Positions 4,381 to 44,415 of a stretch of 64,000 bases of DNA are shown one piece after another. The position numbers and the translations under genes were made by a program. The notes below the pieces were generated by a model, which searched no databases, had not been told where the DNA came from, and saw nothing but the letters and a program-made list of their open reading frames with translations. The stretch is taken from positions 1,364,001-1,428,000 of the forward strand of contig JAWMAR010000421.1 in assembly GCA_036785375.1 (NCBI GenBank). The letters run 5' to 3'. How positions within the stretch are numbered: the first letter of the stretch is position 1; each line of letters opens with the position of its first letter. The stretch is from Leucoraja ocellata (Eukaryota).

Positions 4381-5488
4381 CTTTAATATTAAAATAATGT
4401 TTAATAGGTACCACATGAATAGTCTTTTAAATTAGAATATATATGTTTCAGTTGTGATTTTTGTAAATCAAAATGGTTCCTGAGTTGAAGATCATCCACT
4501 ATATTTGTTCTCTTTCTCCACTGGTCAAGATCTCTTGGCTTTGATATTTGCTATGTTTTGGACTAAACCATGTACTATGTAGTCTCCTGGTCTGTCAACT
4601 TCTTGATTCACAGTATGCTCTTCAAGAATATGACACAGGTCACCGTTGAGGAAAAGATAGTAGATGTCTGAATTGATTTTGGTAAGCCATTTGATAAAGT
4701 CCCTCGTGTTAGGCCTCCAGATGTTTTAGGCTCAGTGATCCTGGCATTCATTCAGCATTGTTGCCATCCTTCAACCACAAGAGCCCTATGTTCTTAAGGA
4801 CCTTCCCTGACTCTCTTTGTCTTTTATCTCATCTTTTGGACACTGCTTAAAACTGACTGAATTTAGCTATTTTGAATATGAAACAATATAATGTGGTAAT
4901 GTGCATTAAAAGACATAGCTTAGTTCTATTCACAACTTCTTTCTCCATAATCTAGCAAATAGTTTAATTATCTGTAATTTCTCCATGTGTATGGTATTAT
5001 TCTGCTTTTGCAACATTTCCAGGCAGTGTATAAATAACATGCATAAAATATACTATTATTTCTTAAGTACTTTTGCCAATTACCTTAAATCTGTGCTCTC
5101 TGGTTTCTGTTTCTTGTCCATGGGACGGTTGTTTTTTTTATTTAATCTATCAAACCCTTTCATCAATATGAACCTCTTTAAAACCTCTCAACCACCAATT
5201 TAAAGGAGGTTAATCCCAATTTTGCATAACTCCACAGAACTGCTCAGTCATTAATACTCACTGAAATATAACAAACTGTGCTGAATTTAGGCCTTTCTAA
5301 TGACTAATGAGATTATTTGAATGGAGCTTGTCTCATAAATTCTACTTGAAACAGATGATACATCACCCTATCACATCTATATAGCAGAAAGTATGCAGTA
5401 TACTTTACGCTAGAAGTTCCAGTTCACTCCTGTGCTACTTATTTGTTATATGTTTGAGACTGGTTCCTTATTTTTGAGAGCTCGATAC

Positions 5489-5543
5489 CTTTTTGGCGAC
5501 TGCGCCAGAGTCTATCGTACGTGTGCCAAGTTGTCGCGTGGGC
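5489..5543 (-). CDS. LCTL: LCTL coding exon 7
   Basis: AHATTWHTYDRLWRSRQK(G); 55 nt, homologous to the GH1 AHAxAWHxY motif. Acceptor ctctttcacag, donor G|gtatcg. Phases fit both neighbouring exons. Confidence 0.92.
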
Positions 5544-6087
5544 CTGTGAAAGAGAAGTCAACACCAAGAGTGTTACTGAAATCATGGCTTCTTCACATTT
5601 TCCTCCCCCACCTTATTTAAAATTTCCAGCTGTCTCGCCCACCAAAAGGACCAGAAAAAGAACCTTCCTCCAAAACCGGACATCAGAATGTGGTGAGTAA
5701 GGCTTCTCCCATTGGTGACCCTCGACCTTGGTCATGGATTGAAGCCACATTGTGGGAACCCGCTTGACTGATGCCTTGGTGCAATACTGAGGCAGTGCTC
5801 CACTGCCAGACGTCCCGTCCTGTACGGTATATGGCAGATACTATGAGGCTGAGCATGCATGTGCTGCTCATGTCCTGGTATCAACCACTGGCAAAACTGA
5901 TTAATTCCTCATGTCTAATGCATTTTGTTTTATGCAAATTGATTGGAGAATGCTACATGAGGACCTTGTCAGATCAGGAAAGATGCTGTCTGCAAGCAAG
6001 TAGAGCAAAACTGATGATCCACTATCTGTTTTCTCAGAAATCCTCATAGATTGGAATCCAGCTCACTTGGTTCTGTTGACTGTGCTC

Positions 6088-6275
6088 CTATTTAACTCAC
6101 TGGCCCCAATCCTTCATTCCCACTGAACTCACCAGGGCCCCATTGTCCCATTCCCTTTAATCTCATGAAGACGCTGTTCCCATACTGCCTTTAATCTCAT
6201 GAGGACCCCATTCTTATACTTCTTTTAAACTCACCAGAGCTGCATTCCCACATCCCTCTAAACACCCGACTCACT
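6088..6275. repeat. Degenerate minisatellite of about 35 bp
   Basis: About five units of tttaa(a/t)ctca...cccc.ttccca. Confidence 0.6.
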
Positions 6276-6435
6276 GGAAAGTTTATCATAAAGTGAATTA
6301 AAAGTTAGTTGGTATTTCAAAAGGAATAATAACATCTGCCAGTCTGGCACCACCAAAGTACCAAGTGTGCTAGATTATCAGCATTTAGTGTTCTTTTATT
6401 TCATTGTTAAACAATTTTTTGATATAGAAACTTAC

Positions 6436-6531
6436 CCTAATAATGTTATGTGCTGCCCTGTAACCTCCTATTCCATTAAGCTTTAACCCTGGGGCATGCA
6501 GTCCAACCTCGTATCCTTCGACAGCTATGGA
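6436..6531 (-). CDS. LCTL: LCTL coding exon 6
   Basis: SIAVEGYEVGLHAPGLKLNGIGGYRAAHNIIR; 96 nt. Acceptor ttgcag, donor AGG|gtaagt. Confidence 0.95.
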
Positions 6532-6825
6532 CTGCAATATATAATACGTAAGCATCAATGATGGTAGTCTAAACATATCCCACTTATTCCACTGTGATCT
6601 AAAGCTCCTGAATTGTACTTAAATTTCCCACGATGGAGCTGCAACCATGTAGGCCAGCACCAGGTCTTTTCCCAAACAGGATCTATCCATCTTCCTTGCT
6701 TGCAGTCATTCGAAATGAGTGGCAAAGAAATAAGCATTTGTACCAGTTATTAGCCTGGCGAGGGATATTTGTCGGGTTTAAAAGAAAAGTGTTGACAGCA
6801 GGATATCTGCAAAAAAATGATTGTG

Positions 6826-7249
6826 TCTGAGCTATAGGGAGAGGTTGAGTAGGCTGGGATTCTATTCCTTGGGGAGCAGGAAGTTGAGGAGTGATCTTAT
6901 AGAGGTATATAATCATGAGAGGAATAGATTGGGTAGATGCACAGTCTCTTACCCAGAATAGGCGAATCAAGGACCGGAAGACATAGGTTTAAGGTGAAGG
7001 GGAAGAGATTTAATCGGAAGCCGAGGGGCAACTTTCACATAAAAGGTGGTGGGTATATGGAACAAGCTGCCAGAGGAGGGAGTTGAGGCAGGGACTATCC
7101 CAACGTTTAAGAAGCAGTTAGGTACATGGATGGGACAGATTTGGAGCGATATGGACCAAACATGGGCAGGTGGGACTAGTGTAACTGGGACAGGTTGGGC
7201 AAGTTGGGCCGAAGGGCTTGTTTCCACGTTGTATCACTCTATGACTCTG
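6826..7249 (+). mobile_element. CR1-clade LINE 3' end (second subfamily)
   Basis: Decayed SYRERLSRLG...VVGIWNKLPEE.VEAGTIPTFKKQL; tail gggccgaagggc...actctatgactct. Confidence 0.88.
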
Positions 7250-8370
7250 TTTGGTTATAGAATTCTCATGTGAGATTGAGAGGGAGATCAATAATGGTGG
7301 AGCTTGATTGGTGGGACGAATGGGTTAAACAAGAAATTGCCCAGGATAATCCTTCATATATTTGCCATCCAACACATGGGATCAACTGGTAATTAACCAA
7401 TTACAGGCCACTGCCTGCGACGAGGACATTGCAATACAGATCATAAACAGTTTGTTGAATTGATGAGAATTTTGCTTAATTCAAATCTCATTTTAGATCC
7501 TATGGTTCAATTTTTATATTTTTAATTTTAATCTTACTTATGCTTTCAATTAATAAATGAAACAGAATGGAAACACGGTGGAGAATAGTGTAAGATGGGC
7601 TTCAGCTGAATAATATAGAAAAGTAAAGTTGGAGAAAAATGGTCTCAAGTCATCATAATTAATATTTATTTTGAAACCATTTTCAATAATTTTAGTTGTT
7701 ACTTTCAAATAGAATTCTGAACACATGGCAGCGCTCAGCATTTTGAATATGAAAGGTAGTTGCCATGTTTCCAAAATAAAGTATGTCACTGCACCTCAGC
7801 TGGGTGAAAAGGTACGATGTAAAAGCAAGTCTTCTCACTGTTCCTTCTGCGAACAGTGTGGCCATTTTTGCAATGGGCTATCATGCTACCAAAGCATAGA
7901 GAACCAAATCGTTAACATTAGATTGAAACTGGATACAATAAGAATGGAGAAAAATGTTTAATCATACAAGTGTGAGCTTTTTTTAAATGGGGAGAGTTCA
8001 GAGCCAATGTGCTTATAAACAAACAACTGAGAGCATATATACAATTGTGCAATGTGGAAGACTTACATTGTTACAAATAAAATAACTCTAATCGTGTACA
8101 TAGAACAGTACAGTTTGGCCCACAGTGTCAATGTTGTACATGATGATAAATTATACTAATCTGTTCTGCCTGTATATGTGATCCATATCCTTCCATTTGT
8201 GCATAGCCACATACTTATAGAAACGGCTTTACTTGCACAGCTTTTTAAGGAATGCTGGAGTCGAAATGTATCAGTGCTGAATAATTGGTGACTGATACCT
8301 CTCATCTCCAGCGTTGCGTTCCACAAGTTAATGTTCAATTAATCAAACTCCATTATGACATAAAACGTAC

Positions 8371-8499
8371 CCAAGGATTGTTGAAAGTAATCCAATGTTT
8401 CACTCGGTCACCAAACTTCTCAAAACACAGATTGGCATAATCATTGAAGAAGTTAATCATACTACTGTTCTGCCAGCCACCATATTTATTTTGGAGGAC
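8371..8499 (-). CDS. LCTL: LCTL coding exon 5 (acid/base motif position)
   Basis: [43 protein letters not shown]; 129 nt, phase 0/0. Acceptor ttttag, donor TGG|gtacgt. Translated manually. Confidence 0.96.
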
Positions 8500-8699
8500 C
8501 TAAAAATAATAGAGATAAATACGAAATGAGAATCAAATGTCATTTAATGCATTATAACTTCTCTTTCTAACACGCTGTAGTGCATACCAATTTCTAGTGG
8601 GCTAACATGACCTTAGATGAACAAAAAAAACAAGCCGGTCATCAGACGTAAACAGATCAATTGGCGAAGGTATCTGCATGAAGAGCATGGCTAACTGTA

Positions 8700-9280
8700 C
8701 AGTAAATCTTCGTTTTAACGGACCCTTAAAACGGATTTTGGTTATAGCGGCGGACCCATCGACGGTTTCTAACATCACCACCGGCTTCACCGCCTCCAAG
8801 GCTGGGCTGCTTTCAGGTGCACTGCCGACGCCACCACCAGCCACTTCCAGGTCGGCCCACACAGTTTCCCTTGCCACTTCCAAGCTGGGCTGCCGACACC
8901 ATCTTCCTGGCTGCTTTTAGGCTGAGATGCCGACACCACCCCTGGCCCACACCGCCCTGCCCGGCAGCTTCCAGGCCAGACCTACTGCTGCCTCTGCCGG
9001 CCCACACAGCTCTCTAGGCCTCTTTCAGGTCGTGCCTGCCGCCGCCGACCCTTACCTGCACTCCAGCCGCCTGCAGGCCGGTACCAACGACTCCACCAAT
9101 CTTCGCCTCTCCTTGGGCCAGCAGGCCCAGGCCATCAACTCACCTGGAACTGAGAGTCTGAAAAAGGGTCTCGACCCAAAACGTCACCTATCCATGTTCT
9201 CCAGAGATGCTGTCTGACCTGCTGAGTTACTCCAGCACTTGCAGTTGTTTGTTTCTGTCCAATATAATGATGGTTTATGG
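8700..9280. mobile_element. Probable Tigger/pogo-like MITE with GC-rich interior
   Basis: Left end TA|CAGTAAATCTTCGTTTTAACGGAC and degenerate right end GTCCAATATAATGATGGTTTATGG|TA (16 of 24 positions match). Confidence 0.5.
9156..9241 (+). mobile_element. pLTR-type short repeat with a degenerate hammerhead core
   Basis: GTCTGAAAAAGGGTCTCGACCCAAAACGTCACC...CTGAGTTACTCCAGCAC. Further decayed copies at about 980-1130, 25430-25700, 26470-26595, 29765-29835, 34740-34835, 47855-47910, 55715-55845, 58580-58675 and 63945-64000. Confidence 0.8.
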
Positions 9281-10982
9281 TACTTACATTAACAGGGCCA
9301 GGTGGCTGTACAGTAAAGGGAATCCACAGGAATTGGAAAAAATATTTTAATAACCCAGTATGCCCTAAGAGAACCATAAATGTGCAGGCTGTGAAAAGAG
9401 ATGGGGAGAGACGCCTTTGTTAAGATTAACACAGCTCTTTTCTGAACTCCTTTCCCAAGACAATGAAATTCTTGACAGTAATAAAAAGGACTCCAAGAAG
9501 GCTGGTTTCATTGCCAACTTCTTTGTAAATATGAAATAGTCAAAGGTATTGAGTCAAAATAAATATTGTTAGAGCATTTCCGAACAGAGTGATTAAAATC
9601 TCAATTCCTCTGTGTCTCGTGGGACCGTTTGTTCAAGTTACATATCAGTTCCAATAAACACCTGACGTAAAGGCAGTGCATTCAAAAGGAGAGAGCAGGT
9701 GGCGGGAATAGATTACATTTTGTATTTTTCAATCTTAAAATTAATTGTGACTATATGTTAAAGCTGAGTGTAGCCACGAGAATGTAATTCAAAATGTGGC
9801 ATTGATGCAGTTTTAAATCAGGCAGCAAAGTTAGTCTGGTCTGAAATTCTGTTTGTTTACACTAAGGAAGAGTGAGATGTGAAATTTAGTGTAATGTTAA
9901 AGGAGAAGTAACAATTAAATCAGTTAATAACGGGCAGGGTTTTACCTTAAAAGACATTGCAGCCAGGGAAGGGTGACCTGATCAGTCATCAAACGTTATA
10001 GATCATTAGATTATCTGCATGTTGACCCCAAATTGATCATGAGGACATGCTCCACTGATAGCACATAAGGATAGGGAGGGAGTTCATTATATCAGCTGTT
10101 ACATTGTTGCCACTGTCAACCTCAGAGATGTTAAATCCTATATCACCACAGAACTAGGAATCCTGATCTATAGTCATTATTAAATCTCTTAATAACACTT
10201 CTGCACAACCGAAGTAATCAAACCCCACTCAGATAGGTGGAGACACTAGTCTGACAGTAATCCAGGAACCTGTGTGTAACACAGCTGTACTAGAGCTAGA
10301 ACGTCTTGTCCCTGGTCGTTCAGTCTGTGGTGGGAAGGGTAGTAGCAGAGTTGTTAAAGTTGGTCACGTACCCAAATCTGAAAAGGTAAAATAAAGCCAG
10401 ACTTTTCACATACAGGGGGAAATGCAGAAATTCAGATTTGCAAATTCAGATATATGGAGAGGCGCATATATGCATTCTGATGTAAATGGACAAATGTATG
10501 CTCACAATCATATTGAATTTTTAAATGATTATTGAGATGGTTGTTTCCCCACTTTCCATTCCCTCCACCCCACCCTTGCAGATGTCCCTGCTGAGAAAGA
10601 TTGTAATCATTTTGGGTTGCAATGACAGAATTCAGTAGATTAAGACAGGATTGTAGCATCACAGTATTCAGAGTGACCCGACCACTTTCTCTAAAAGTAT
10701 GGTCCTTAGGACGAACACAACAGTCCCCTCCTGCACAGGTTAGAATTAACCATGTGGGTGAAGCCTATGCTCTTTTATTTGTATTTATCTGTGGGATGTG
10801 GCTATTGTGTATAATTGTTGCCTTTTTGTGACTGACATTCAGCTGAAGAGTCAGTGCTCATTTATTTGTTTGTTCTCACACTATAGACAAGGTTGGGTTT
10901 ATTGTCTCCTTGAAACTCTGCAGTCCCTTGACTGAAACTGTACCAGTATATCCTAAATCACATTCAAACATTTGGTACAGAC

Positions 10983-11092
10983 CTGTGGAAGATCCCAGTG
11001 GTACAGGGTCACTATGGGCAGAATTTGGCTCTCCTGGAGGGTGTTTATCAGTTCATTATAATAGTCGATTCCTTTGCCATTCACTTGCTCGG
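10983..11092 (-). CDS. LCTL: LCTL coding exon 4
   Basis: [37 protein letters not shown] with the GH1 TLYHWDLPQ motif. Acceptor ttctccag, donor CAG|gtctgt. Confidence 0.95.
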
Positions 11093-11259
11093 CTGGAGAA
11101 TTTTGAAAGATAAGAAATAGATTATCTATAATGTACAAATTATTTGTAAATACAATCTTTGTTATACTCTACTGTAACTTTCCTAGAGTGAGGACCTCCT
11201 CCCACAGTTATATCAAGACTCTTATGTAGTGTGATAATACAGGTACTGCTGGCTACTGA

Positions 11260-11484
11260 GAATCTGTGGAATTCTCTGCCACAGAAAGTAGTTGAGGCCA
11301 GTTCATTGGCTATATTTAAGAGGGAGTTAGATGTGGCCCTTGTGGCTAAAGGGATCAGGGGGTATGGAGAGAAGGCAGGGATGGGATACTGAGTTGGATG
11401 ATCAGCCATGATCATATTGAATGGCGGTGCAGGCTCGAAGGGCCGAATGGCCTACTCCTGCACCTATTTTCTATGTTTCTATGT
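11260..11484 (+). mobile_element. CR1-clade (HER1-like) LINE 3' end, young subfamily
   Basis: Encodes the RT C-terminus NLWNSLPQKVVEASSLAIFKRELDVAL; 3' stem-loop ggccgaatggcc and (TTCTATGT)n tail. Near-identical to 24856-25105 and 33823-33974. Confidence 0.92.
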
Positions 11485-11884
11485 ACGTGGCAGTGCCGGA
11501 GATCAGATTTGGGAGTTGATGTGATGGGGAGGAAAGGTTGGGAGATGTCATTGCACAGCAGGGAATTTTTAATACTGAGCTGGTATCCGAGTATCAGCAA
11601 GTTTGGCAATCATGGAGTTATACAGCTATTAACTGACCTCACCCAGGATGATAGATTTATCCTCATAACTCAAAGCACAGAAACAGGGAGAGAAAACAAC
11701 CTTAGTATAATCCTTAGTTACACTTCAGTACCCATAAATTTGTACAAGGTTGGCCGAGAGTGGAAGGATGTCAGCCAAGGTTAAAGTGGTGGGCATAACA
11801 GGCATTTTTTCCTAATAATACAAAATAATTATAGGAATAGTGGTTTTCAGTTCTGTCCGCCCCATTGCAGGAAGGATGTGTGGT

Positions 11885-12492
11885 GGGCGGGGGAGTCGGG
11901 GGAAACTTTTTCAATCTCTTACCTTGCCGGAGATGCGATGGTTTTCTGGATCGTATCTCCGGTCGCTCTGCGACCTAACATCGTGGAGCTGGAGGCCTTG
12001 CTCGGGACTGACTTTGAGCCCCTTGCCTGGGCTCCATGCTCCAACTGCGGCCTTTAACATCAAGGAGCTTGCAGTCTCGGGTTGAGACCAACATCGGGAA
12101 GCTCCAAAAGCCGCAAGACGTTCGACTAGCCCCAACCCATGGTAGATCACCCGGCGCGGGGGAGCTGAGATTCCCTCCCCCCCACCCCCTCCTCCCAATG
12201 CATGAGCTTGATCGCCCCGACGAGGAGGCCAGCCGCCGGCTACAGGAGAAAGATCATCCCGTCAACGGAAGGCCCCCGACCCGTGGAGGACAAAGAAGTG
12301 AGAGATTGAACTTTTTTATCCTTCCATCAGTGAGGAATGTGGAGGAGTCACTGTGGTGGATGTTCATGTTAAAATGTATTTTGAGTGTTCTGTTGCTTTT
12401 TATTGGTATGACTGTATGTTGCGTGTATGTTGCACTGTAATTCCTCGTATATGGTGCAAAACATTCTTGGCTTATAAAGTATGATTATGATG
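11885..12492 (+). mobile_element. Unclassified CpG-rich non-autonomous retroposon
   Basis: Abrupt GC-rich block with internal aacatcg/ggagct subrepeats, an AT-rich 3' part and a short tandem tail (tatgattatgat). Confidence 0.55.
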
Positions 12493-13120
12493 CCATCCTG
12501 GTTCTTCAAGCCTGGTCTGTCACAGCTGTGGGGCAAATGCACAGCTTCTTTCCCTTCCCTTACAGGGTGACTGAGGCCAAGTGTTTACTGAGCAGAAAAT
12601 GTTTAAAGGGGATTCCAAACCAAAAAGTGTGAAAAGAGAGACGTCATATGTACTCATAGCTCAGGACTATGCCCTTTGGCCCATAAACTTTATGCCGAAC
12701 ATGACACCAATGTAAACCTCACATCTACCTACACATGGTCTATATCCTTCAGTTCCCTGTTCATGTCTCTCTATGCCTTTTAATCATTGCTATTATATCT
12801 GATTTCCAAAATCTACACATCCTGCCTATAATGTGGCGACCAGAAATGCAAACCAAAACTTTGATTTGTATTACAAAGTAAAAATACTTAATACCTGCTT
12901 AGTCCCAGAACTTGTACCCGGCCTGACACCTTTCCACTCTCTGCCAATCATGTGCAAATCTGTGGATGCTGAAGTGCAGCAAAAGATTATGCTAAAATTC
13001 ATTTTCTCCCTGTGAACAAGGAGGGAATCTGCTCACTTCTGACAGCATTAACATTAGCTTACTAGCATTCAGAGAAGGCCGACTCCCTACCTAGCAAGAC
13101 AGTAAAGTGAGAGATGTTAC

Positions 13121-13208
13121 CTTTTATCCCCGTTGGTATGATTCGAGGCCAGGATATAGAAAAGCGATAATGATTGACTTTTAACTCCTTCAACAAGGCA
13201 ATGTCCTC
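13121..13208 (-). CDS. LCTL: LCTL coding exon 3
   Basis: EDIALLKELKVNHYRFSISWPRIIPTGIK with the GH1 YRFSISWPR motif. Acceptor ttacag, donor G|gtaaca. Not in the ORF track; translated manually. Confidence 0.95.
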
Positions 13209-13355
13209 CTGTAATAAAATCAGGTGTTAACCAGGCTTTGCATGCATGAGGAAAATTATGAAGTTACTGGGTCTAGAAGGTTTGCTGGACAGGCTAGGAA
13301 TTCTTTACCTGGAACATAGGAGCCTGAAGGATTATGTTATGGAGGTTTATAATAT

Positions 13356-13470
13356 CACTAGACCAAGTGGGACACGTTGGGTCCTTGTCACACTGGAGGG
13401 CTGGTCCCCGATCGCAATATTCCACCACTCACCCAAAGCCCCCAACTGTGCAGCCGCGGTTGTGACGCCA
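13356..13470 (+). mobile_element. Possible Helitron/Helentron-type terminus fragment
   Basis: ACTAG followed by the imperfect hairpin GGGACACGTTGGGTCC. It interrupts a CR1 remnant (13255-13352). Confidence 0.35.
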
Positions 13471-13740
13471 AAGGTTTGGGATAAGGGCCAGGTGCAGGCA
13501 GTTAGGTAATCCAAACAATGTATTTTCACCAGAAATACTTGGCGATGGAGGATAGTTACATATAGAATTGCAAATCGAGTCACTTAGAAAAGTGGTCAAT
13601 AGACCTGATTGACAGTGGGTGATCCAATCACACCCATTCTGTCAGGAATTTCACCATATTCCACCTTAAACATTTCATTGCCTGCAAAATACCTTGGGAT
13701 GTGAAAAACTCTAACACAACCCCATATTCTATGTTCTTAC

Positions 13741-13901
13741 CTTGAATTTATAATAGCTTTCACAGGATGAGTCCCCTGTTTCATTCAGGAATACTTTTCC
13801 TTTCTTATGCGTGAAAACATCCCAGATACTGAGACCTTTCCCATCTTGATTCCAAGCTCCTTCTGTCTGGTAGGCCGAACTGCCCACACCCCAGGAGAAA
13901 C
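13741..13901 (-). CDS. LCTL: LCTL coding exon 2
   Basis: [54 protein letters not shown] contains the GH1 N-terminal signature. Acceptor ttttag, donor AAG|gtaaga. Confidence 0.96.
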
Positions 13902-16175
13902 CTAAAATCAGTAGAGTACTTAAACACTGTGTTTCATGACAATATATATTTGTGCATTGATTGGTACTTGGAAATATTCCAAATTGTTTCAAACTAAGAT
14001 TAATTAAAGTTCGGTATTTTTCACATTTCCATACAATGCAGGAGGCCATTCATCTGATTGAGCTTATGCTGGCTGTTAGTAAAATCCCATTATCCCACTT
14101 ATTTCCCTTGTAATTATTATTTCTCATACATTGCAGGACGTCTCTGTTCCGAGTCTATATGCCTGTGATGCTGCTGCAAGCAAGATTTTCATTGTACCTG
14201 GATCTCACCACACTTGTGCATGTGACAATAAACGTGACTCGCCTTGAGATCTACCCTAATTCACCAGCCACCCACCTACACTTGGGACAACCTAGTATGA
14301 CCAATAAACCCAACAACTCTTGTGAGTTTCGGACATGGGAGAAAACTCAAGAGTACCCAGAGAAAAGCCACATTGTCACAGAGAGAACATGGAAATCGGA
14401 GCTAAGATCAGGATCAAACCCAGGTCACTGGAGATGTGAAGCAGCAGAACTGCCTGCTAAACCACTGTGTTGCTCATATATGCTGCAGCACAGAACGTTT
14501 AAAGATGGTACTGCATGACTTTCAGCTCTAAATACAAACTCTGAAGTGATATTAGAAAATTGGTGTGGAGCTGATTGTGTCTGGTCCAGTACGAGACGAG
14601 AAACAGAACAACCATGCTGTCACAAGATCTGTAGCTGCACGGGACTGTTCATTAATTTGTATAGTCTGCCATGAACATAGTAAAACATCCAAGGCGTGTC
14701 ACAAAAGGAGATGGCAAAGAGAGAACCAAAGTCAACCAACGAGTTGTGCTTTAAGGAGCATGAAAGGAGGAGAGGGAGGCAGAGAAGTTAGGGTTGGTGT
14801 CCAAGAAACTGACAGAGAGATTAAAATCCACATTGACTGGAAGGCTGTGAGAGTTGGGGGAACACAGAGATCATAGAGAGTTGTAGCACTAGAGTTTACA
14901 GGGATGGATTTCCACTCAGGGTGAGCAGGGGCAAAATCTTGGAGGAATTTGAAAGCAAAGTTGGAATTTTTAATATCAAGACCTTTATTTAATGTGAAGC
15001 CTACATAACTCCCACAGCACTGGAGGTGGAAGGAATGCAAATTAGACATATTTCTTAAAGAAAATAACATTTTGAGATTCTGCATGAATAATCTGAGAGG
15101 ATGTACAGTGGAAAGCAGATATCTTTGGACTTAATGTTTCCCAAGGGCTATGCTCACTCACACATAGGAGCACACAAGAACAAGAGAGGTTTCATAAAAG
15201 ATCTTGGGAGGGTTAGACAGAAGGACATGTCCATTGGTTGTGAAATCCACAATTAGAAATCATGGATTCATGCTATAATTTCATCTATTTGGGAGAGAGC
15301 TGAGTAGAGATTTATTTTGAATTCTCTGCAGCACCATATATGTGGTGCTTCGTCATTTGCATGTTTGAGGCTTAGATTAGGTAGTTTCTGAGGTTGTAAT
15401 GAATTAATGGATATTGGAAAGTTATTGTAAAGTTGAATTATTTAATGGAAGGGCGGAGAGGCCATTCGTTTCAGTTCCTAAAAGCTACGTATCATGGGGG
15501 CTTTATTCATTTCTAGCCTGGATTTGTTGTGGACTGATTAATAAATCGTCTGTGTATCAATTGATCATTGGGATAGTGGAAGATGAATCAGATAGATCCT
15601 AGTCCTTGGTGCTGTAACAATTCCAATATCCTAAAGTCTTTTCAGAATACTTGTTAGATTCAACCAATCAAGATTTTGAATATTTGTCTCTTTTTTTCAC
15701 CTGGATCTTGATTTGTAAACTTAGAAGGTAAATGCACATACTGTTTCTTATGGGGACTGTCAATAATCTGTCACTACAGGGGCAACAGTCATTCGTCATT
15801 GAAAACTCAATGTGATGCATATAATCCAGTTTCTGGTAACAAACATTGGCCTGCTCTAAACTGGTAAGAATTCTGAAGCTATTGGACACAGAGAACATAT
15901 CAAAAGATCAGTTTATTTGTATATTGCGTAAAGTTAAGAAACTGTCCACAAATCTGGTATAATGAGAAGATTCCAGAACTGAGAAGGACCAATATTATTT
16001 TTCTTGATTATTCTTAAACTTTTAAATCAGTGACCAGAAATGGACATTCTGTAACAATAGATTTGTTCTGACCATAAAAATCATGCCTTCATCATACAGC
16101 ATCTTAAAAGTATTAACAGTAAATTAATACATCGCTCTAGTTCCTAGCTCTACTTGGGCCCTTCAATGTACTTAC

Positions 16176-16296: not shown

Positions 16297-19200
16297 CCTT
16301 CAGCCTTTATCAGTCCAGTGTCGTTACCTAGCACCCGATGGCAGCTTCTCCCCACAATCTGTCCACACACAGAGTACAACACGATCATGCAGAAGAGTGC
16401 CGCAGAAAAACTAACCACACGGGCAAGAGCACATTGTAAAGTGAAAGCTGAGGGATGACCCGACAGGTCTTTCAAATTCTGAACTAATTTGATTGATAAA
16501 TGAAGAGAAAACATGTCCCCATCTTAATGAATTCACAGTGCAAATGTGAAACTTCTTCCCAAAGGAATAAACGTACAAAGGAGGATGTTATAGAACGAGA
16601 TGATGGTGGGATCGGATGAATGGGGAGAATGTGATGCCGTGAGTGAGCACTTGATCTGAATGATCTCTTTCTATGCTGTGCTTTCCATACAAAATAAAAG
16701 TGCTGGTTATTAACCATCATAGCTTCTACCGCAGGCACAAGTATCAAAGATATGCACTACCATGTATTTTTTGTCTTGCATTATATTAATTGGCATCCTC
16801 GTCATCCAAGTAATTAAAATAGCATTTACTGAATTTGCGTTCAGATTGAATCCTCCATTCAGAAAGCCACAATACTGCTTTTGGGCTCTTTCCTTCATTT
16901 GTTGAGTGCAGAATTCTCCCAAGTTCCTGATGTTGAACATTTGCACCAGATAGTTAAAGGTATCACCTTGATATCACATTGTTGATTTCCAGACAATATT
17001 GTAGAAAAAATGAATTCCTAATGCAATGCTCATTTGTGTTATATACACATCCAGTCAAGTTTGGCAAATGAGATTAATGAAAGACTGACTGCCACAAATC
17101 ACCATCTTACCTGTTAACCTTTCTTCATTTATCTGGATGAGAAGATGACACCAATACTAGGCACTCAGAATAAATCCACCCTGCAGCCGTACACAGTCCA
17201 AAAATAAAGTAAAAATTTGGAGAACAATCTAGCAAACTATTCATTGGTTCCAGAGAGAGAATGTCATTTGGAATTCAATGATGCGTTAGCAAATTTAGCT
17301 GAACTTGACAATTCTCTTTGTAAAGGCCGAGTTTCCCTTGTAAGCAAACTTTTCTAAGCTGTATTTGAACCAGCCTCTCTTGTGTGTGTTTTTGATGACA
17401 ATACTTCAGTGTGAGGATGAGCTCTGTGTCATTTTCATAGGAATAGTTCTGAATGTAAGCATATAAAGGATCACAATGTTGTGCCAGGTTGGAAACAGCT
17501 GCTCAGTGGCAAACACTGACAAAGCAAGTTCAACCTCTTTCCCTCTGCCTAGATACTGCAATGGGGTGAATGCCTCAGAATTAGAATGGCTCACCCCTCT
17601 GAAAAGTATTGCACATTTTCCAAAAAAAGATCTTTTGCAACAAATCCAAACTTCTGATAAAATTCCAATGGGGATATTACATTCTTCCAAAGACATGTTG
17701 CACTAAACGTTATTCCCTTATCATGTAGCTGTACACTGTGAATGGCTCGATTGTAATTATGTATTGTCTTTCCGCTGGCCGATTAGCACACAACAAAGGT
17801 TTTGCACTGTACCTCGGTGCACGTGACAATTAACTAAACTGAACTGGACGAGGGAGTTCATTGTTGTAATTATCTTTTACAGTGAGTTTTAACCTTTCAG
17901 TAGGCTTGAGGTAGTTGTTGAAATGTTCAATGATAGTTCATAGTATCTGTATAGTGACGTTGCCATGTGTGTTTGACCTGATCTTACCCAAGAGTCAGTA
18001 TGTGCATCAAGTTCCTCGAAGCAGAAGATAGACAATTTTCTTGCAAGTGAGTGATAGTATGGATGCAAATGGATCTCCCTTGGCATATTCACACTTCTAC
18101 TCAAAATGTTAGCCTAACTGCTCCCCTAAACCGTCATGTTCTTGTTTCACATATGAATGTTTAGCTTTCAGAGTAATTTGAAAATGTATTAAATGGGCCC
18201 TTCAACAGTGCTACTAATCATAGAATGAAACATCTATAATGTTGCATTGGGAGTCCAAATTAGCTTGGATTATCTCATGCATGCATCAGTCTCACTGAAA
18301 TAAGATTCATAAAATACAGATTGTGGAATTCTCTGCCACAGAAGGCAGTGAAGGCCAATTCACTGGAGAGTTTACAAGAGAGTTAGATATAGCTCTTGGG
18401 GCTAACAGAATCAAGGGATATGGGGAGAAAGCAGGAACTGATTTAGCATGATCAGCCATGATCACAGTGAATGTCGGTGCTGGCTCGGTGCCAAATTGCC
18501 TACTCCTGCACTTATTAAAGGAGAATGGGATAGGATCAATAACACACTTCTATTTAATCCCAGTTCAAATGATATTGGTCCATCTCCAGGCCACTTCAGA
18601 ACATTCAGTCATCTGACTGCGACAGCTTCAGAATCTTATTATCTTTTAAAGGCAGCCTAATCTGTCTAGCACCTGCCACAAAGTTTCATGATCAATGAGC
18701 CAAAGTGTTTCCTCAAAACAGCAAAAAAAACACCAACTAATTTTGTTTACAATACCTTCCTGGATAAGCCCTTTTTGGTACACACCCTCCTGTTAGTTTA
18801 GACTAGTTTAAAGCCTCCTGAGTAGTCCAGCAAACCTGTCCACCAGGATATTGTTCCTCTTACAGTTCAGTAGCAGCATCTGTGTCTAATACAGGTCACC
18901 TCTGCTCCTAATAGGTCGCAATGGTCCAAATGCCTTCTCCTGTTCCAGCACATGATGCCCTTTCCTCCTATTCCTGCTGTCACTAGCACTTGAGAGGCAA
19001 CGATGTTGGCATTCTCAGTCTTCTGGAATCTTCTCATTGCACTAGATTTGAAAAACAATTCATGAAGTGCCTGCGTCTTCATTCTGTTGTATTCAGCTTA
19101 TGTGCTGTTTGGTTCTGAGTCTCATCTGACATGCACTGAGAGTTGGCTTAAAATGATATTTAATTGTAATGATGGTTTACCTGTCAATGATTAGCTTCAA

Positions 19201-20318
19201 GTCTATACGGGATAATCCTACAATCATTATGACTAATTTGAATTTAGAAGTAAAAAGATGTGATGTTAAGATTTATATTCAGAAAAAAAAAACGTCATAT
19301 AGATTGTTACAATCTCCCATCACTAACATATAAACTACATCAATGCCATTTTGCACCCTGCATCTTGACACACATTCTCCCTTTAAAATATAAGAAAAAT
19401 AAACTTTCCCAACTCCCAAATTCTGAATCTCATTTCATATCTCAAATGCTTCTGCCAAATATCCTGCAAATTCAAATAAAATGAGCTCAGGCACAGTACA
19501 ACAGTACAACAAGGACACCCAATCAAAAATAGCACCCTTCTGTCTTTCTCCGCAGCTTACATTAACTAAGAACAGTGGTTGTTTGCCCCAGCATTAAGGC
19601 TGGCAAAGAGCTTTGTACGCCCTGCTCAGTTGGAGGGTCAACAACATTGTTTTCAGCAATCAGCCTTCACTAAAATTGTCTCAGGGTACATTCCCGAAAA
19701 CAATTTAAAGGAAATCTTTTTATCGTGGTTTAATAAATACATGGGGTTATGTGCACTTTATGCTGGTACGGGTAATCAATTGCATTGCTACAAACATAGC
19801 CAATGCAATACTGTGAACTGTTAAGAAATGTAATGACACCAAGAAGCTGTCACCAACTCAGCTGTAGATGAGTTATATGGATGCCACACCAGACATTCCC
19901 GTCTCCCTGTAATTTCTGCCGACATTCGGTAGACATTCCTCTCTCCTTGTTAGACTACCCAAGCTTGTTACCATAAACATGGACACTTACTATTGTAATG
20001 GTACTTTCAGGAGTTTCTGCACAGGCTTTTTTATTAACAAAACTAATACTGCAATAGTGATTAGTCACTATTGGAGATCCTCAGGGGATGCACAGAAGTA
20101 ATAAAATAATAAAAGATCCCATGGCCAAGCACAGAGACTGCAGCATGTGAATATCATTCATACATCCAGCTAACTTTGTTGTCTATTGTTCCAAAACCTC
20201 AGCACCCATGTTCCAAGAAAGTTCAAAATTGCGAAAATTTGCACACCCGCAGATGCGTTTCTGATTTTGTCTTCCTAATTCTCAGGGACTTGTCAGTTTT
20301 TTGTGCCGATAACACATC

Positions 20319-20324
20319 TTTATT
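20319..20324 (-). terminator. Candidate SNAPC5 polyadenylation signal (AATAAA)
   Basis: AATAAA on the minus strand about 230 nt after the stop codon; a second one lies at 20030-20035. Confidence 0.4.
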
Positions 20325-20552
20325 CAGCACAAAGGTTGCACCGCTGCAACTGTCGTCCACTGCAGCTGCCCTTCTCATTTCTGTCAAGGAGGTGAAGCAA
20401 TGAAGACAACACTTTCAAAGTAATGTTTCAGAAGTTATGGTCTGCAGTTCTCAAAGGCTGTTGTGTTCATACATCCAACTTGCTGTACATTGAAAAAAAA
20501 TCTGAAGACATCTTTTGTGCTATTAATTTAAAGTCTTGACACAAAGCATGAT

Positions 20553-20693
20553 TTAGTTATATTCTTCATCCTCTTCTTCTTCCACTTCCTCCTCCTCCTC
20601 CTCATCATGTCTTATATGAGTAACAAACTGGGATGTGTTTAACTGTAGCTGGGTTTGATTGATGGCATTTTCATTGTCTACCTGCATCAAAGA
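20553..20693 (-). CDS. SNAPC5: SNAPC5 last coding exon with acidic tail
   Basis: SLMQVDNENAINQTQLQLNTSQFVTHIRHDEEEEEEVEEEEDEEYN*; VDNE..INQT.L.L and the poly-Glu tail match SNAPC5. Acceptor cttctacag. Total protein 108 aa. Confidence 0.93.
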   Translation of the reverse strand, partial: SLMQVDNENAINQTQLQLNTSQFVTHIRHDEEEEEEVEEEEDEEYN

Positions 20694-21425
20694 CTGTAGA
20701 AGGAAATGATTAGCAATAAAAATAAGGTATTCAATAGACACATTAGGTTAAAGCTATAATGAATCTTAAATAACTTTCACTCCTTAAATTTAAGATTAGA
20801 ATTACTATTCTATTAAATTACTATTCAATTATTCTAGAATGAATATAATATTAAATGTTTTGCTCCCTTCTTTTTTCTAGTTCAAAACCCATTTTGAGGG
20901 GAATTAGTCTGTTGGGTCCCTACATATGAGAACCTTGGAGGGGACAGGGATATGGATTACGTAGGCTTGAGGAAGATAACTTTCGATTCTCGGGAAAATT
21001 TCACAACCTTATAACATCTCAAATCAATTTACAGTTGTGTTGGAGTGTAAAGCTGCCAATTTGTGCACAGCAAGCATCTGCAAATAGCAATGGGAAATTG
21101 ATCAGGTATCTTTCAGTACTGAGGAATAAATTTCAGACAGGGAGATCAGGAAGAGCTCCTCAAAAGTAATGTTCTGGGATCATTCTCACCTGGATGGGCT
21201 CCTCCATTTAATGTGTCATTGAAAATACACAACTTCACCACTGAGAATCTGGACCAAACACAGGGTACCCCAGATTAATGGGGATTTGTATACCTAGAAA
21301 ATGGCCTGTATTCTAATTTTCTTTAACGCAAAGTCATGTTATTTGTGCATAAATACAAATTGGAAAAGAAATTGTCTTTATTCACGTAAATCCTGAGAGC
21401 GTGAATCAAATGGGCTTTTATCCTG

Positions 21426-21558
21426 TGTCAAGAAGGAACTGCAGATGCTGGAAGATCGAAGGTACACAAAAATGCTGTAGAAACTCAGCGGGTGCAGCAG
21501 CATCTATGGAGCGAAGGAAATGGGTTACGTTTCGGGCCGAAACCCTTCTTCAGACTGA
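21426..21558 (-). mobile_element. Short Penelope-terminus (pLTR-like) insertion with a minimal hammerhead core and 11-bp TSD
   Basis: Flanked by direct repeat CTTTTATCCTG (21415-21425 and 21559-21569). Homologous to the terminus of the GIY-YIG element at 50682-50805. Confidence 0.85.
21526..21553 (-). ncRNA. Minimal type I hammerhead ribozyme motif
   Basis: Minus strand CUGAAGA-A-GGGU(UUCG)GCCC-GAAAC-GUA: both conserved boxes, a stem II hairpin and an NUH triplet. Stems I and III are minimal. Confidence 0.6.
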
Positions 21559-22152
21559 CTTTTATCCTGGATGGCTTTTAGTTTCTGAATGTAGTCTGAA
21601 CTGTGCTTATCCAGGTAAGTGAATAGTACACTCATGTTCTGTATTTGTACTTTGCACATTTAAAGACTTGAGTGTCATGAGATGATTCACTTTCAGCAGA
21701 ATTCCCAAGCTTTGACTTGCTCACAATCACAGGATACAGCATTCAAATTGACAAAAAGAGTACTGGTGACAAGCTGACCAAAGGAGTTAGTGTAGGACAG
21801 AACCCAAGAGAAAAAAAATAAAAGGCAGGTACACAAATGAGCAAACTACAGGAAAGCAGAGTAGAAATGCAAGGAAGAAGGTACACAATGGGTTCTTTAC
21901 AAAGTAATCTATTCAACCTTATTATCTTGTTCTAAATTCCTGCAATATTTTCTCCAAATAATGGAAAATAGAACAAAGAAATGAGGTCCAAGTATGAATG
22001 AAGAAAAGTACATACAAATACTAAAGCATACCAGAATTAAGGCAGCACATAACCAAAACAAAATTACAAGCAGTCACTGTGCCTGGCTAATCTGTCATCT
22101 TGGAAATTTTACTAAACATTACAGTATTTACAGCACAAAACACATTTCTCAC

Positions 22153-22248
22153 CTCCATGGATTCAGGTGTTTGGCCACACTTGTCAGTGCCAACAGTGTG
22201 GCCTTCATCTTTGGTCATGATCATGGATCGCAAGGCCAACTCTTCTAC
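22153..22248 (-). CDS. SNAPC5: SNAPC5 second coding exon
   Basis: VEELALRSMIMTKDEGHTVGTDKCGQTPESME; VEELAL.SMI continues the conserved sequence. 96 nt, acceptor ttgcag, donor GAG|gtgaga. Confidence 0.93.
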
Positions 22249-23959
22249 CTGCAATCATAGCAAACTCACATTAACATGGACACATTCCTAAAGCTGTAGA
22301 TAGCCACATTAACAATAACTTGCATTCATAATGCATTTTGAAAAATAGTGACATTGCTGGTCACATAAAGGTTAAATAAATCAAACATGTATAGAACACA
22401 GAAACTGAAAAGCTATTTAGCCCCTCAGGCCTCTATCAAAATTCATTGTGGCCTGATGTTTTAAGACCAAATGCTGGAAGGTGTTTGGATTATTATTTTA
22501 TGACTGACACAAATACTGGCTGAATGACTCATTCAATATTGTAAATTATTAAATATATTTAAATATAATCAAGCATTTTGGGGCTAAGAGAAGTCAATGG
22601 TTAGGCAGGGAGGTTAAGTTGAGGCCACAACCTGATTAATTATGATCTTAGTGAACCTGTAGGGCCTAATTGTATTATTAAATTTTCAGCTGCATTCTGA
22701 CAAGACTCAGTACTTTGACTGGATCATGACCAATCTATTTAAGTGCCATTTTCCAGAAATATCTCCACATCCCCAACTCCATCTTGGTTCTGAACAAATT
22801 CATGACAGAGTGTGCACTATGTAACAGGATAGGCCAGTAGAAACATCTTTCCTATGTCCACCTTGTTGAGCCCTAACTTTTCTAAATGCTCATACAATCT
22901 CTTGTTCATCTAAAAGCTCTTAACAATACAAGTCTGGCCAACTCAATCTTTCATGGAAAACAAATCATTCTCAGAACGAGTCTTGGGAACCTTCACTGCC
23001 CTCCTTGTGTAGTAGGTATACTTTCTTGCAGGATAAAGAGCAAATCTCTGCACATAACTCACCAATGCCCCCATATAATTACAGCAATACCTCTTTACTC
23101 CTGCACTCAAATCTTCTGATGATAAATAAGGATAACATACAATTTCCCTTTGTAATGCCTTGCTGAACCTGCATATTAACACACATAAACAATTCCAGAT
23201 GATTGGAAGATCATACCCAGACCGTATACTATCTCTATCGCTACCTCTTTTAAAACTCTGAGAAATAAATGAAGGGAGTTTTGTACTTCTAGTACTTTAA
23301 ATATATATATAATTTAATTAATAGACACTTGTCTGCTATTTCTGGCTGGATTAATACATGAAGACATGGTAATTGTTTCTGTGCCATTTGCTTATACCAT
23401 AATACAAATCCTCCCATCTCTTTCTGTCAGGGACCCATCTCTATCTGTGCTTGCCTTATTCTTTTTACACATCTATAGCAGATCATGCAGTCCAGTTTAA
23501 GTTTCCTGAGTGGATTTCTCACCTTAACAGAAATTCATGATCTGCTGAGATGGACTGATGTGATGTAACTAAAATGCTGAGATTTTTATTTGATTAAATT
23601 TCCCCAAGTCCATTGGTGGGTTTGTTGGAGATGGGATTTGAATATTATCCTAACTGCCAAGCTGTTGCTATTATAGGATAAGGGAATGGAGGGACATGGA
23701 TAACGTGCAGGCAGAACAGATTAGTTTAATTCGGCATCAGATTGGACACAGACATCGTGAGCCAAAGGGCATGTTCCTGCGTTGCACTGTCCTATGTTCT
23801 AAGACTGGACAGATGAATGGTAAGATAGTGGCAAGGATTTGTGCATTTATCTGGCACATGACCTAACCTGGATTATTTGATTGAAAGGGATTCCATCTCC
23901 TGGCATGGCACAGCACAAGAGGACAATCCACTAAACACAAACTTTCTTTGTGGATTTAC

Positions 23960-24049
23960 CTTGAGTCGGTTTAATTGATCTTGTAAAGTGCTTTTGATCT
24001 TCAGTAGAGCTTCCTCTTCTTTTTTCAGCTCTTGTAGCCGACTCAACAT
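23960..24049 (-). CDS. SNAPC5: snRNA-activating protein complex subunit 5 (SNAP19), first coding exon
   Basis: MLSRLQELKKEEEALLKIKSTLQDQLNRLK matches the vertebrate SNAPC5 N-terminal coiled coil. Donor AAG|gtaaat. Confidence 0.96.
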
Positions 24050-25105: not shown

Positions 25106-25849
25106 TAACTGAGTTGCAATAGAGACGAGGTATGACGTAACTGACCCTGCTGTCAGTGTGGAGTTTACATGTTCTCCATGTGACTAAGTGGATTTACTGT
25201 AAATTGCCCATCGTGTGCCAGCGAGTAGATTCGGGAGAGAGTGAGTAGGAGCGCGTTGATAAGAATGTTGGGAGAATAAAATAAGTCAGTGTAAGGTTGG
25301 TGTAAAAATGACAGTCGCAGTTGGATATTAATTCAGATCTGTTAGTCAAGGCCTTAGGATTTCTAGCCCAGTAATATGGCAGCTGCACCTTCACTTTCAG
25401 TAGCACAGTTTAAGGTGTAGAAGGAGTCACGGGAAGACACAAGTGCTGGAATAAGTCAACGGGTCAGGCAGTGTCTCTATAGACAACATGAATAGGTGAC
25501 GTTTCGGGTCGCGACACAAGACACAGCGGATGTTGGAATCTGGATCAACAAACAATCGGCCGAAGAAACTCAGTGGGTCCAGCATCATCTGTGTAGGGAA
25601 AGGAATTGCAGGGTCCTGATGCAGAGTCCCGACCGCAAACATCCACAATTCCTTTCTTCTTACACATGCTGCTCGACCCGCTACGTTCCTCTAGCAGACT
25701 GTTCATTGCAAGAAGAACATGTTTCCACACTGTCGTCAGGGAGGGAGCTCCATGACTCAAACTCAACATTGTTTAAGGCAGAGGAACAGCTTGATCATCA
25801 AATCCCCACTAACAGCTGCAGATTAATTCCCTGGCTGCCGACGACACAT

Positions 25850-26400: not shown

Positions 26401-27096
26401 TGTGAAGTGAAAATTGTAAATAAAAGATCCTGAAGGTCTCGAGCAAAAAAAAACTGCTGGAGGGACTCAAACTGTCTGAATAAGTATCCCGTCCGTCCCA
26501 AAACATCGTCTGTCCATTTCCCTCCACAGATGCTGCCTCACCCGCTTCTCTCCTCCAGCACTTTGTGTTTTGCTCAAGCTTCCAGCATCTGCAGGCTCAT
26601 GTCTCTCTATCCTGAAGGAAGGCAAGTTTCCTGGCTTGAAGAATCGAGAATTAGATGTCACTGGTTAAAAATAAGGTGGTCACCATTTAAGACAGAGATG
26701 AGACTTTTTTTTCCTCTCAGAAAAAGTCATGAGCCTTTGAAACATTGTCATAAAGTGGAGAGGGCGGAGTGTTGGAAAATGTTTAACTTAAGAAGTGAAA
26801 GTGTACCAAAGGTATTCAGGAATATAGAGTTGAGGCTGCAGCTATATTAGTTATGACATTAAATGGTGTTTAAACTAGCGGCTGAATTATACATTCACAT
26901 GCTTTATAATTCCACACCAACCTTTCCACTTAAATTATGTTTTCTAACCCTGCCATATTCCCTTTCTTTCACACATGTATCATAGAAACTAGTTGAAGAT
27001 AATAGTTCCAAGTTCTGTTTACATCTAACTTCCCTGCCATTGTATTCCATTAGTACACAAATGAGCTCATTAATTTACATTCTGTTGGCCCATTTA

Positions 27097-36146: not shown

Positions 36147-36580
36147 TGCAAACCTTGCAGGGACCCTCCAAATGACGTTCATCTTGTTGGTGCAGGCCAT
36201 CATTCGCAGATTCCATCTTGGGGAAACTTGCTTATTTATAGATATTAAATGTACAAACTGAGCAAATACATATCACATTATTTACATAATGGCAAACACT
36301 TAGGACAACAGACACAATTAGAGCTGTAGGAAAATTGGCTTTTCCAAAAAGCTTGTCCTTTCTCAAATTTCCCTTGCAAATTTAACATCAGAATGTGTCT
36401 GGATTTGTGGGAATCTTGCCACAGACAAGAATTTAAGGTGGTTTAAATAGAAAAATCCATACATGTTGATGTATTTTGAAACTGCAAACTGCCAAGTAAG
36501 ATTATTATTTCAGTCATCTAACTGAAGCAAATCATAGGTAGATAAAGGGTGTAGGAAGGAACTGTAGACACTGGTTTATA

Positions 36581-36793
36581 CCAAAGATAGGCACAAAATG
36601 CTGTAGTAACTCAGCGGGTCGGGCAGCATCTCTGCAGCAGTGGAATAGGTGACGTTTCAGGTCAGAACAAATTCTTCAGACTGGGTGTGAAGATGTCTGA
36701 AGAAGTGTTCCAACCTGAAATTTCACCTATTCCTTTTCTGCAGAAATGCTGCCTGACCCGCTGAGTTACTCCAGCATTTTGGGCCAACCTTGG
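36581..36793. repeat. Palindromic (head-to-head) pair of pLTR-type units
   Basis: Arms 36581-36681 and 36695-36793 are imperfect reverse complements, each with a CTGAAGA...GAAA motif; 13-nt spacer. Confidence 0.85.

Positions 36794-42708: not shown

Positions 42709-44415
<1,707 letters not shown>

What the first reader, a model, noticed from the sequence alone, without database searches (positions are those of the whole stretch)
21415..21569. A 133-bp mobile unit with an intact minimal hammerhead core sits sense-wise in a SNAPC5 intron
Seen: 21426-21558 is bounded by a perfect 11-bp direct repeat (CTTTTATCCTG), which looks like a clean target-site duplication. On the minus (SNAPC5 pre-mRNA) strand it reads UCAGU-CUGAAGA-A-GGGU-UUCG-GCCC-GAAAC-GUA-ACC. 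That gives both hammerhead boxes, a UUCG-capped stem II, an NUH triplet, a stem I of about 2 bp and a loopless palindromic ACGU stem III. Established: Penelope-like elements carry minimal type I hammerheads in their pLTRs, and these are thought to cleave mainly as dimers. Inference: this is a young insertion of a tiny ribozyme-bearing unit that might cut the host pre-mRNA, possibly only by pairing with another copy. Caveat: the element's 5' end lies 5 nt upstream of the core, not at the cleavage site.
Basis: partly seen in the sequence, partly recalled or inferred. Interest (0 to 1): 0.7.

Follow-up and report, generated by a model that had tools for sequence, protein, structure and literature searches.

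The report
Penelope retrotransposon end in SNAPC5 intron
This 133-base insert in an intron of the SNAPC5 gene is one of tens of thousands of clipped end-pieces of a known type of jumping gene; it carries that element's known minimal self-cutting RNA motif, but this old, mutated copy is predicted not to cut the host RNA, so it is real but ordinary.

Summary
The 133-bp insert (21426-21558) has an 11-bp target-site duplication, lies sense-wise in SNAPC5 intron 2 and carries a minimal hammerhead core. A related organism has the empty site with one copy of the repeat.

It is not a stand-alone or young element. It is the terminal repeat (hammerhead to 34-nt tail) of a roughly 3.9-kb Neptune-type Penelope-like retrotransposon; 30,473 exact copies of its core occur in the assembly. 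The insertion is shared by four organisms about 2% apart.

Host cleavage looks unlikely: stem I is 2 bp, there is no second core in the gene, private changes favour a rival hairpin (predicted stem II under 0.2%), the GUA triplet is a decay mutation, and the second haplotype has lost C3. RNA data were too thin to test cleavage.

One family feature is real: 44 of 85 sampled copies start within 18 nt of the hammerhead's front edge, not at its cut site, probably the 5' end of the element's RNA. The scan noted this kind of repeat, and that edge, several times before.

The parts
21415..21425 (.). Target-site duplication, copy at the element's 3' end
   Evidence: Exact 11-bp repeat; one copy only at the empty site of organism E
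21559..21569 (.). Target-site duplication, copy at the element's 5' end
21426..21558 (-). Terminal repeat (pLTR end: hammerhead to tail) of a Neptune-type Penelope-like retrotransposon, unit positions +1 to +133
   Evidence: 95-98% identical to the ends of RT plus GIY-YIG elements; 87,331 exact matches to a 28-nt family motif
21526..21555 (-). Minimal type I hammerhead: 2-bp stem I arm, CUGAAGA (21553-21547), extra A (21546), stem II (21545-21534), GAAA (21533-21530), ACGU stem III palindrome (21530-21527), H17 = A (21526)
   Evidence: Read from the sequence; descriptor scan; 30,473 exact matches to the 29-nt core; no Rfam hit
21522..21526 (-). Private or rare changes at +33, +34 and +37 that let GGGUU pair with AACCC, a rival hairpin
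   Evidence: Differences from other copies and pair probabilities; GUA and GUG triplets both rare
21553..21553 (-). Catalytic-core C3; changed to A in the second haplotype copy (G000:C79)
   Evidence: the flank contig of run X2 stops at 21554, as a heterozygous site would cause (inferred)
21426..21459 (-). 34-nt optional 'tail' (+100 to +133) between the family's two 3' end points
   Evidence: 34 of 85 sampled copies have it, 51 stop near +99; matches the 30-40 bp PLE tail (PMC11167929, PMC8557442)
23960..24049 (-). SNAPC5 first coding exon
   Evidence: Pfam PF15497
22153..22248 (-). SNAPC5 second coding exon
   Evidence: Splice sites and open frame
20553..20693 (-). SNAPC5 last coding exon
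   Evidence: Splice site, open frame, stop codon

Best explanation
The insert is the 133-base terminal repeat of a Neptune-type Penelope-like retrotransposon, placed in SNAPC5 intron 2 with an 11-base target duplication, and it is likely an inert by-product whose hammerhead is predicted not to cut the host RNA. Steps: (1, shown) full elements read repeat - ORF (RT, CxxC linker, GIY-YIG) - pyrimidine-rich 3' UTR - repeat, about 3.9 kb. (2, inferred from PMC11167929) the element's enzyme nicks host DNA and starts reverse transcription inside its RNA at two sites 34 nt apart, giving the two 3' ends near +99 and +133. (3, inferred) the template RNA begins at the front edge of the hammerhead, so priming on the 5' repeat copies only 100-133 nt before the template ends; this gives the short unit and the pile-up of 5' ends at +1 to +16. 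(4, shown) this copy inserted after the split from organism E and before A-D separated, and has since gained point changes. (5, predicted) alone in the gene, with 2-bp stem I, loopless stem III and a rival hairpin, it does not reach the active fold and leaves with the spliced intron.
For: Parent element: upstream sequence shared by long copies encodes RVT_1 and GIY-YIG matches (both just under Pfam's cut-offs), with ADKG, YIDD and CX4CxxC motifs in an 889-aa frame; the best homologue is 68% identical and named from a shark. Copies with the unit at both ends 3.9-4.05 kb apart: L216, L217, L218. Copy number 30,473 and 87,331 exact motif matches. 5' ends: 44 of 85 non-redundant copies end at -1 to +16, 12 at +17 to +57, at most 5 in -110 to -2; per-base stop rate 14 and 29 times the two neighbours. 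Of 13 loci whose hammerhead unit continues into the element's 5' region, 7 loci (6 insertions) also start at this edge with no element DNA upstream. Short and long copies co-occur in the same subfamilies, 17 short and 13 long in the largest. Age: present in A, B, C, D, absent in E. Inactivity: P(stem II) 0.0003-0.0012 in four contexts; forming the trans junction costs 0.7 kcal/mol against stem II alone; no second core in the SNAPC5 region by descriptor scan; C3 changed in haplotype 2; GUA 58 and GUG 42 of the first 100 of 193 matches, so GUA is decay; core positions vary as much as non-core ones among 49 copies, 8 of 539 against 16 of 1127.
Against: No cleavage assay or RNA-end data exist for this copy; folding programs ignore tertiary contacts and proteins, and the Anolis PLE hammerhead cleaves only with the element's protein (PMC11167929). 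The core of this haplotype is complete and the insertion has persisted in four organisms. About 30,000 cores could pair in trans. The RNA 5' end at +1 to +4 is inferred only from DNA copy ends; in D. virilis the start site lies upstream and an intron ends at stem I (PMC2377424, PMC4209133), and here a pyrimidine tract plus CAG precedes the core in long copies, so a splice site or a pause at the C-run could also explain the edge. The 85-copy sample comes from the first 5.5 Mb of one contig, 14 of 99 matches were dropped as duplicates, and a few duplicates or paired halves of one insertion remain.
Confidence: 0.85

Rival explanations
1. The short unit is a self-propagating non-autonomous element (SINE- or MITE-like): short copies are transcribed from an internal promoter and re-inserted by the Penelope enzyme.
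For: Sharp 5' edge, fixed 3' ends and duplications in 23 of 33 short copies. The unit contains the inferred priming sites and starts with an initiator-like TCAGTCT (consensus recalled). Non-autonomous PLE derivatives are proposed in bioRxiv 10.64898/2026.07.22.740005.
Against: No subfamily of more than a few copies is only short; all six combinations with four or more typed copies hold both long and short copies. Copies that run on into the ORF start at the same edge. No tree was built, so a minority of short-derived copies is not excluded.
Confidence: 0.1
2. The edge at +1 to +16 comes from reverse transcriptase stalling or template switching at the hammerhead hairpin or the C-run just upstream, or from a 3' splice site (pyrimidine tract + CAG), not from the RNA's start. 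The copy would still be an inert pLTR end.
For: Long copies have a pyrimidine tract and C-run directly before TCAG. D. virilis Penelope has an intron ending at a 2-bp stem I (PMC4209133). Several inverted copies join inside the quasi-palindromic core.
Against: Many copies keep the CAG itself and none starts at +5 among 85, which a spliced template would not give. Ends fall after the hairpin has been copied and stop before the C-run. No RNA loose-end peak at that acceptor among the rows shown (916 rows not shown).
Confidence: 0.3
3. This copy is an active or host-used intronic ribozyme that cuts SNAPC5 pre-mRNA, alone with a protein or by pairing with another copy.
For: All core bases and an NUH triplet are present in this haplotype; the insertion is fixed or shared across four organisms; domesticated intronic hammerheads exist in amniotes (PMC6155905, passages).
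Against: Stem II predicted under 0.2%; no partner core in the gene; C3 changed in haplotype 2; single PLE minimal hammerheads showed no cleavage and dimers low cleavage (PMC4209133); 8 of 9 frog dimers did not cleave (bioRxiv 10.64898/2026.07.22.740005). At 8.9 cores per Mb a 3.5-kb gene has about a 1.5-4% chance of a sense copy, so hundreds of genes would.
Confidence: 0.04

Closest known systems
Minimal hammerheads (min-HHR) in pLTRs of metazoan Penelope-like elements (Cervera and De la Pena 2014, PMC4209133)
   Same: Type I core, extra base between 9 and 10.1, G10.1-C11.1 pair, palindromic 15.2-16.2, no loop 3, mostly single dispersed motifs from truncated elements.
   Different: Stem II is 4 bp and stem I 2 bp (2 bp as in D. 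virilis, shorter than the 4-5 bp in Schistosoma). At least 30,473 exact cores here against about 4,000 (coelacanth) and 9,000 (Xenopus) reported there, by different search methods. Their supplements were not read and may list this family.
Neptune clade of EN+ Penelope-like elements (as described in PMC8557442)
   Same: [quoted passage not shown]
   Different: Clade assigned by the linker motif only, no tree against named elements. The window copy has no ORF.
Poseidon element PAc of Anolis (Frangieh et al. 2024, PMC11167929)
   Same: Two end points about 34 nt apart defining a tail; hammerhead upstream of the priming sites; copy ends not at the cut site.
   Different: In PAc the ORF starts in stem II; here the likely start codon lies about 30 nt after the tail (inferred). 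That paper's main text does not describe a pile-up of 5' ends at the hammerhead's front edge.
Animal non-LTR retrozymes (bioRxiv 10.64898/2026.07.22.740005)
   Same: Non-coding, pLTR-related, type I hammerhead; dispersed monomers are described.
   Different: Retrozymes are defined as tandem units; this copy is a single insertion with a target duplication, colinear with the parent's end.
Conserved intronic hammerheads of amniotes (RECK and others; PMC6155905, passages)
   Same: Type I hammerhead in sense in an intron.
   Different: Those are conserved across distant species; this one is a lineage-restricted repeat copy, absent in organism E and mutated at C3 in one haplotype.

Membership tests
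PLE minimal hammerhead (min-HHR) | CUGANGA and GAAA boxes, stem II, NUH, palindromic 15.2-16.2, extra base after A9 | tested here: met
   second haplotype fails at C3
PLE minimal hammerhead (min-HHR) | Lies in the terminal repeat of an RT plus GIY-YIG element | tested here: met
PLE minimal hammerhead (min-HHR) | Self-cleavage as dimer or with protein | not testable with these tools
   No assay; folding predicts an off-pathway hairpin; RNA lays show no end pile-up but cover the locus at about 1x or less
Rfam hammerhead families | Covariance-model match | tested here: not met
   8 matches at E up to 10 in 19000-24000, none a hammerhead
Neptune clade EN+ PLE | RT with C-terminal GIY-YIG endonuclease in one frame | tested here: met
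   889-aa frame in L115 with DKG, YIDD and IY..YIG motifs; Pfam matches in L031
Neptune clade EN+ PLE | CX2-5CxxC linker between RT and EN | tested here: met
   CX4CxxC at residue 756 of L115; the motif is also in Nematis (PMC8557442)
Neptune clade EN+ PLE | RT phylogeny groups with named Neptune elements | not tested
EN+ PLE insertion structure | 30-40 bp optional tail, inverted truncated partners, partial tandems | tested here: met
   Tail in 34 of 85; 11 of 44 edge-starting copies have an inverted partner; tandems in L216, L217, L220
Non-LTR retrozyme | At least two tandem units each with a hammerhead | tested here: not met
   Single unit between host repeats
Independent SINE-like family | Own diagnostic sequence lineage, separate from the autonomous partner | tested here: inconclusive
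   Short and long copies share subfamily variants in 85 copies; no tree built
Domesticated intronic hammerhead | Conserved at the orthologous site across distant species, core protected | tested here: not met
   Absent in organism E; C3 changed in haplotype 2; core state in B, C, D could not be read

The most novel reading that the evidence does not exclude
The element's RNA starts exactly at the hammerhead's front edge, so every transcript can be primed on its 5' repeat and shed a 100-133-base ribozyme-bearing mini-insertion; tens of thousands of these sit in introns, pair in trans through the ACGU palindrome with help from the element's protein, and cut host pre-mRNAs, which would select against sense-oriented copies. 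One single-cell RNA run showed 4.5 times more antisense than sense reads over the unit, as such depletion would predict, but a second stranded run was near parity.
Probability: 0.06. Interest if true: 0.7.

Novelty: new member of a known kind. Interest (0 to 1): 0.17.

Why it matters
As a single locus it matters little: an old, probably silent repeat copy in an intron. It is useful as a clean dated example, with a filled site in four organisms and an empty site in a fifth, that Penelope-like elements make ordinary target duplications and shed ends that start at the hammerhead's edge rather than at its cut. That pattern bears on the open question of what PLE hammerheads do, since it suggests uncut RNA is the template, in line with PMC11167929. 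It would matter much more only if such copies were shown to cut host transcripts.

Tried and rejected
Rfam scan: no hammerhead hit.

Young or polymorphic insertion: rejected; both haplotypes in the assembly and organisms B, C, D carry it.

Source RNA made by hammerhead cleavage: only 3 of 85 copies (2 insertions) start at +34.

GUA as a selected variant: rejected; the inactive GUG is nearly as common.

A longer stem I through splicing at the CAG before the core: no copy starts at +5; I looked at candidate donors only by eye, so this is not excluded.

RNA evidence: no RNA holder was listed for organism A. Raw reads of B and D showed no place where many molecules begin or end, but SNAPC5 was covered at about 1x or less and the intron flanks at 0, so this says nothing on cleavage. 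Core state in B, C, D could not be read because repeat reads swamp the site.

Literature: searches for hammerhead + Penelope + dimer + shark, Penelope + Neptune + elasmobranch, and Penelope + skate + cartilaginous + retrotransposon found no paper describing this family; the library lacks most subscription papers. Lunse et al. 2016 was not held and is known only through PMC6765202. No supplements were read.

Gene scan: only the 150 longest of 283 open stretches were scanned with Pfam. A sequence look-up in earlier findings returned nothing.

Full report
Observation. The insert, the 11-bp flanking repeats and the minus-strand hammerhead reading are as described. SNAPC5 exon 1 matches Pfam PF15497. 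Coding exons at 24049-23960, 22248-22153 and 20693-20553 give one 109-aa frame, so the insert is in intron 2 in sense. Rfam has no hammerhead match here.

What it is. The unit has many close relatives in the genome: 30,473 exact matches to the 29-nt core and 87,331 to a 28-nt motif downstream, in a 3.44-Gb assembly that holds many loci twice. Many copies extend upstream through a pyrimidine-rich stretch into a reading frame that matches RVT_1 and GIY-YIG, both slightly below Pfam's cut-offs. An 889-aa frame has DKG, YIDD, a CX4CxxC linker and the nuclease motif; its best homologue is 68% identical and named from a shark, so the host is probably a cartilaginous fish (inference). In tandem copies the sequence continues past +133 into the element's 5' region, and L216, L217 and L218 have the unit at both ends, 3.9-4.05 kb apart. 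The unit is thus the terminal repeat of a Neptune-type Penelope-like element, by the linker criterion in PMC8557442 (passages read).

Ends of the copies. I sampled copies by a motif at +58 to +85, which does not depend on the 5' end: 99 matches in the first 5.5 Mb of contig C1, 85 after dropping 14 duplicates. The 3' end is near +99 in 51 and near +133 in 34, the 30-40 bp tail that PMC11167929 (main text read) ties to two internal priming sites. The 5' end lies at -1 to +16 in 44, at +17 to +57 in 12, at +58 in 1, and upstream in 28, of which at most 5 end within 110 bases; the stop rate at the edge is 14 and 29 times that of the neighbouring stretches. Only 3 start at the predicted cut (+34). 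Of 13 loci where the unit runs on into the 5' region, 7 (6 insertions) start at the same edge; 7 other fetched loci lacked the hammerhead part. Short and long copies share subfamily variants, and 23 of 33 non-inverted short copies have duplications of 7-17 bp. I infer that the template RNA begins at the hammerhead's front edge and is copied uncut. A pause at the C-run or a splice acceptor is the rival; D. virilis has an intron ending at a 2-bp stem I (PMC4209133, parts 1-2 of 4 read; PMC2377424, passages).

Age. The second haplotype carries the insert. In runs of organisms B, C and D the flank contigs run 21-29 bases into the element on both sides, with 16 of 848, 20 of 838 and 19 of 816 differences on the left flank, so it is shared. 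In two runs of organism E one contig skips 21417-21559 with one letter between and keeps one copy of the repeat; E differs by about 3-6%.

Can it cut? Not tested directly. Against: stem I is 2 bp and stem III a 4-base palindrome; the trans junction is predicted at -4.4 kcal/mol against -5.1 for stem II alone, and the descriptor scan found only one other core-like site in the window, 29 kb away and lacking the palindrome. Changes at +33, +34 and +37 let GGGUU pair with AACCC, and stem II has a predicted probability of 0.0003-0.0012 in four contexts; one other family core tested reached 0.41, others were also low. GUA and the inactive GUG are similarly rare, 58 and 42 of the first 100 of 193 matches. 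Haplotype 2 has C3 changed. Among 49 copies core positions vary as much as others. Published single motifs did not cleave and dimers cleaved weakly (PMC4209133); 1 of 9 frog dimers cleaved (bioRxiv 10.64898/2026.07.22.740005, parts 1-3 of 5 read). For: this haplotype's core is complete, the insert has persisted, and the Anolis hammerhead is protein-assisted (PMC11167929), which folding programs cannot see. RNA lays gave no end pile-up but almost no coverage of SNAPC5. Over the unit, summed across all copies, run X22 gave 1333 against 1522 for the two directions and run X23 gave 4686 against 1036; judged by a few SNAPC5 exon reads these mean near parity and a 4.5-fold antisense excess. Internal priming on A-rich stretches could explain the latter.

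Comparison and verdict. It is a member of the known PLE minimal-hammerhead class by sequence and position; activity is untested. It fails the tandem criterion for retrozymes and the conservation criterion for domesticated intronic hammerheads (PMC6155905 and PMC6765202, passages). Three searches found no paper on this family; and one search gave the class papers. Earlier notes of this scan, seen after my analysis, describe the same kind of repeat and the same edge in this genome; they are not independent support. Hammerhead numbering, the NUH rule and the initiator consensus are recalled. Real, ordinary, interest 0.17.

Noticed in passing
window 3012-14049, minus strand: Three Glyco_hydro_1 exon matches (3012-3332, 4130-4426, 13732-14049) downstream of SNAPC5 in the same orientation; probably a lactase-like (LCTL) gene, name recalled.
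   Followed up: no
window 42712-44415, minus strand: A 568-aa uninterrupted frame with N-terminal ankyrin repeats, possibly an ANKRD34-type intronless gene, name recalled.
   Followed up: no
window 9155-9240, 25564-25606, 26518-26594, 36555-36780, 50684-50807, 55768-55843, 60836-60927: Eight older relatives of the unit at 72-83% identity, including an inverted pair at 36555-36780.
   Followed up: partly
L029 (G000:C104), L196, L198, L204, L208: Internally deleted mini-elements: unit, 100-230 bases of the 5' region, then the 3' UTR and a second unit. These place two hammerheads 300-400 bases apart and are better dimer candidates than the window copy.
   Followed up: partly
window 21504-21522, minus strand (unit +37 to +55): A pyrimidine tract followed by TAG then ATG looks like a cryptic splice acceptor inside the unit; no RNA support among the rows shown.
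   Followed up: partly
run X23 over window 21468-21588: Single-cell RNA reads over the unit are 4.5 times more frequent in one direction, apparently antisense to the ribozyme; run X22 is near parity.
   Followed up: no
run X23, loose ends at window 21557: 807 reads continue into a different upstream sequence, pointing to a second family that shares the same hammerhead unit.
   Followed up: no
G000:C1, about 0.2-2.9 Mb: Many sampled copies occur twice in mirrored order on this contig, suggesting a folded-back haplotype duplication in the assembly.
   Followed up: partly
L154, L160, L169: Inverted pairs join inside the quasi-palindromic core (+12 to +28), suggesting fold-back priming there.
   Followed up: no
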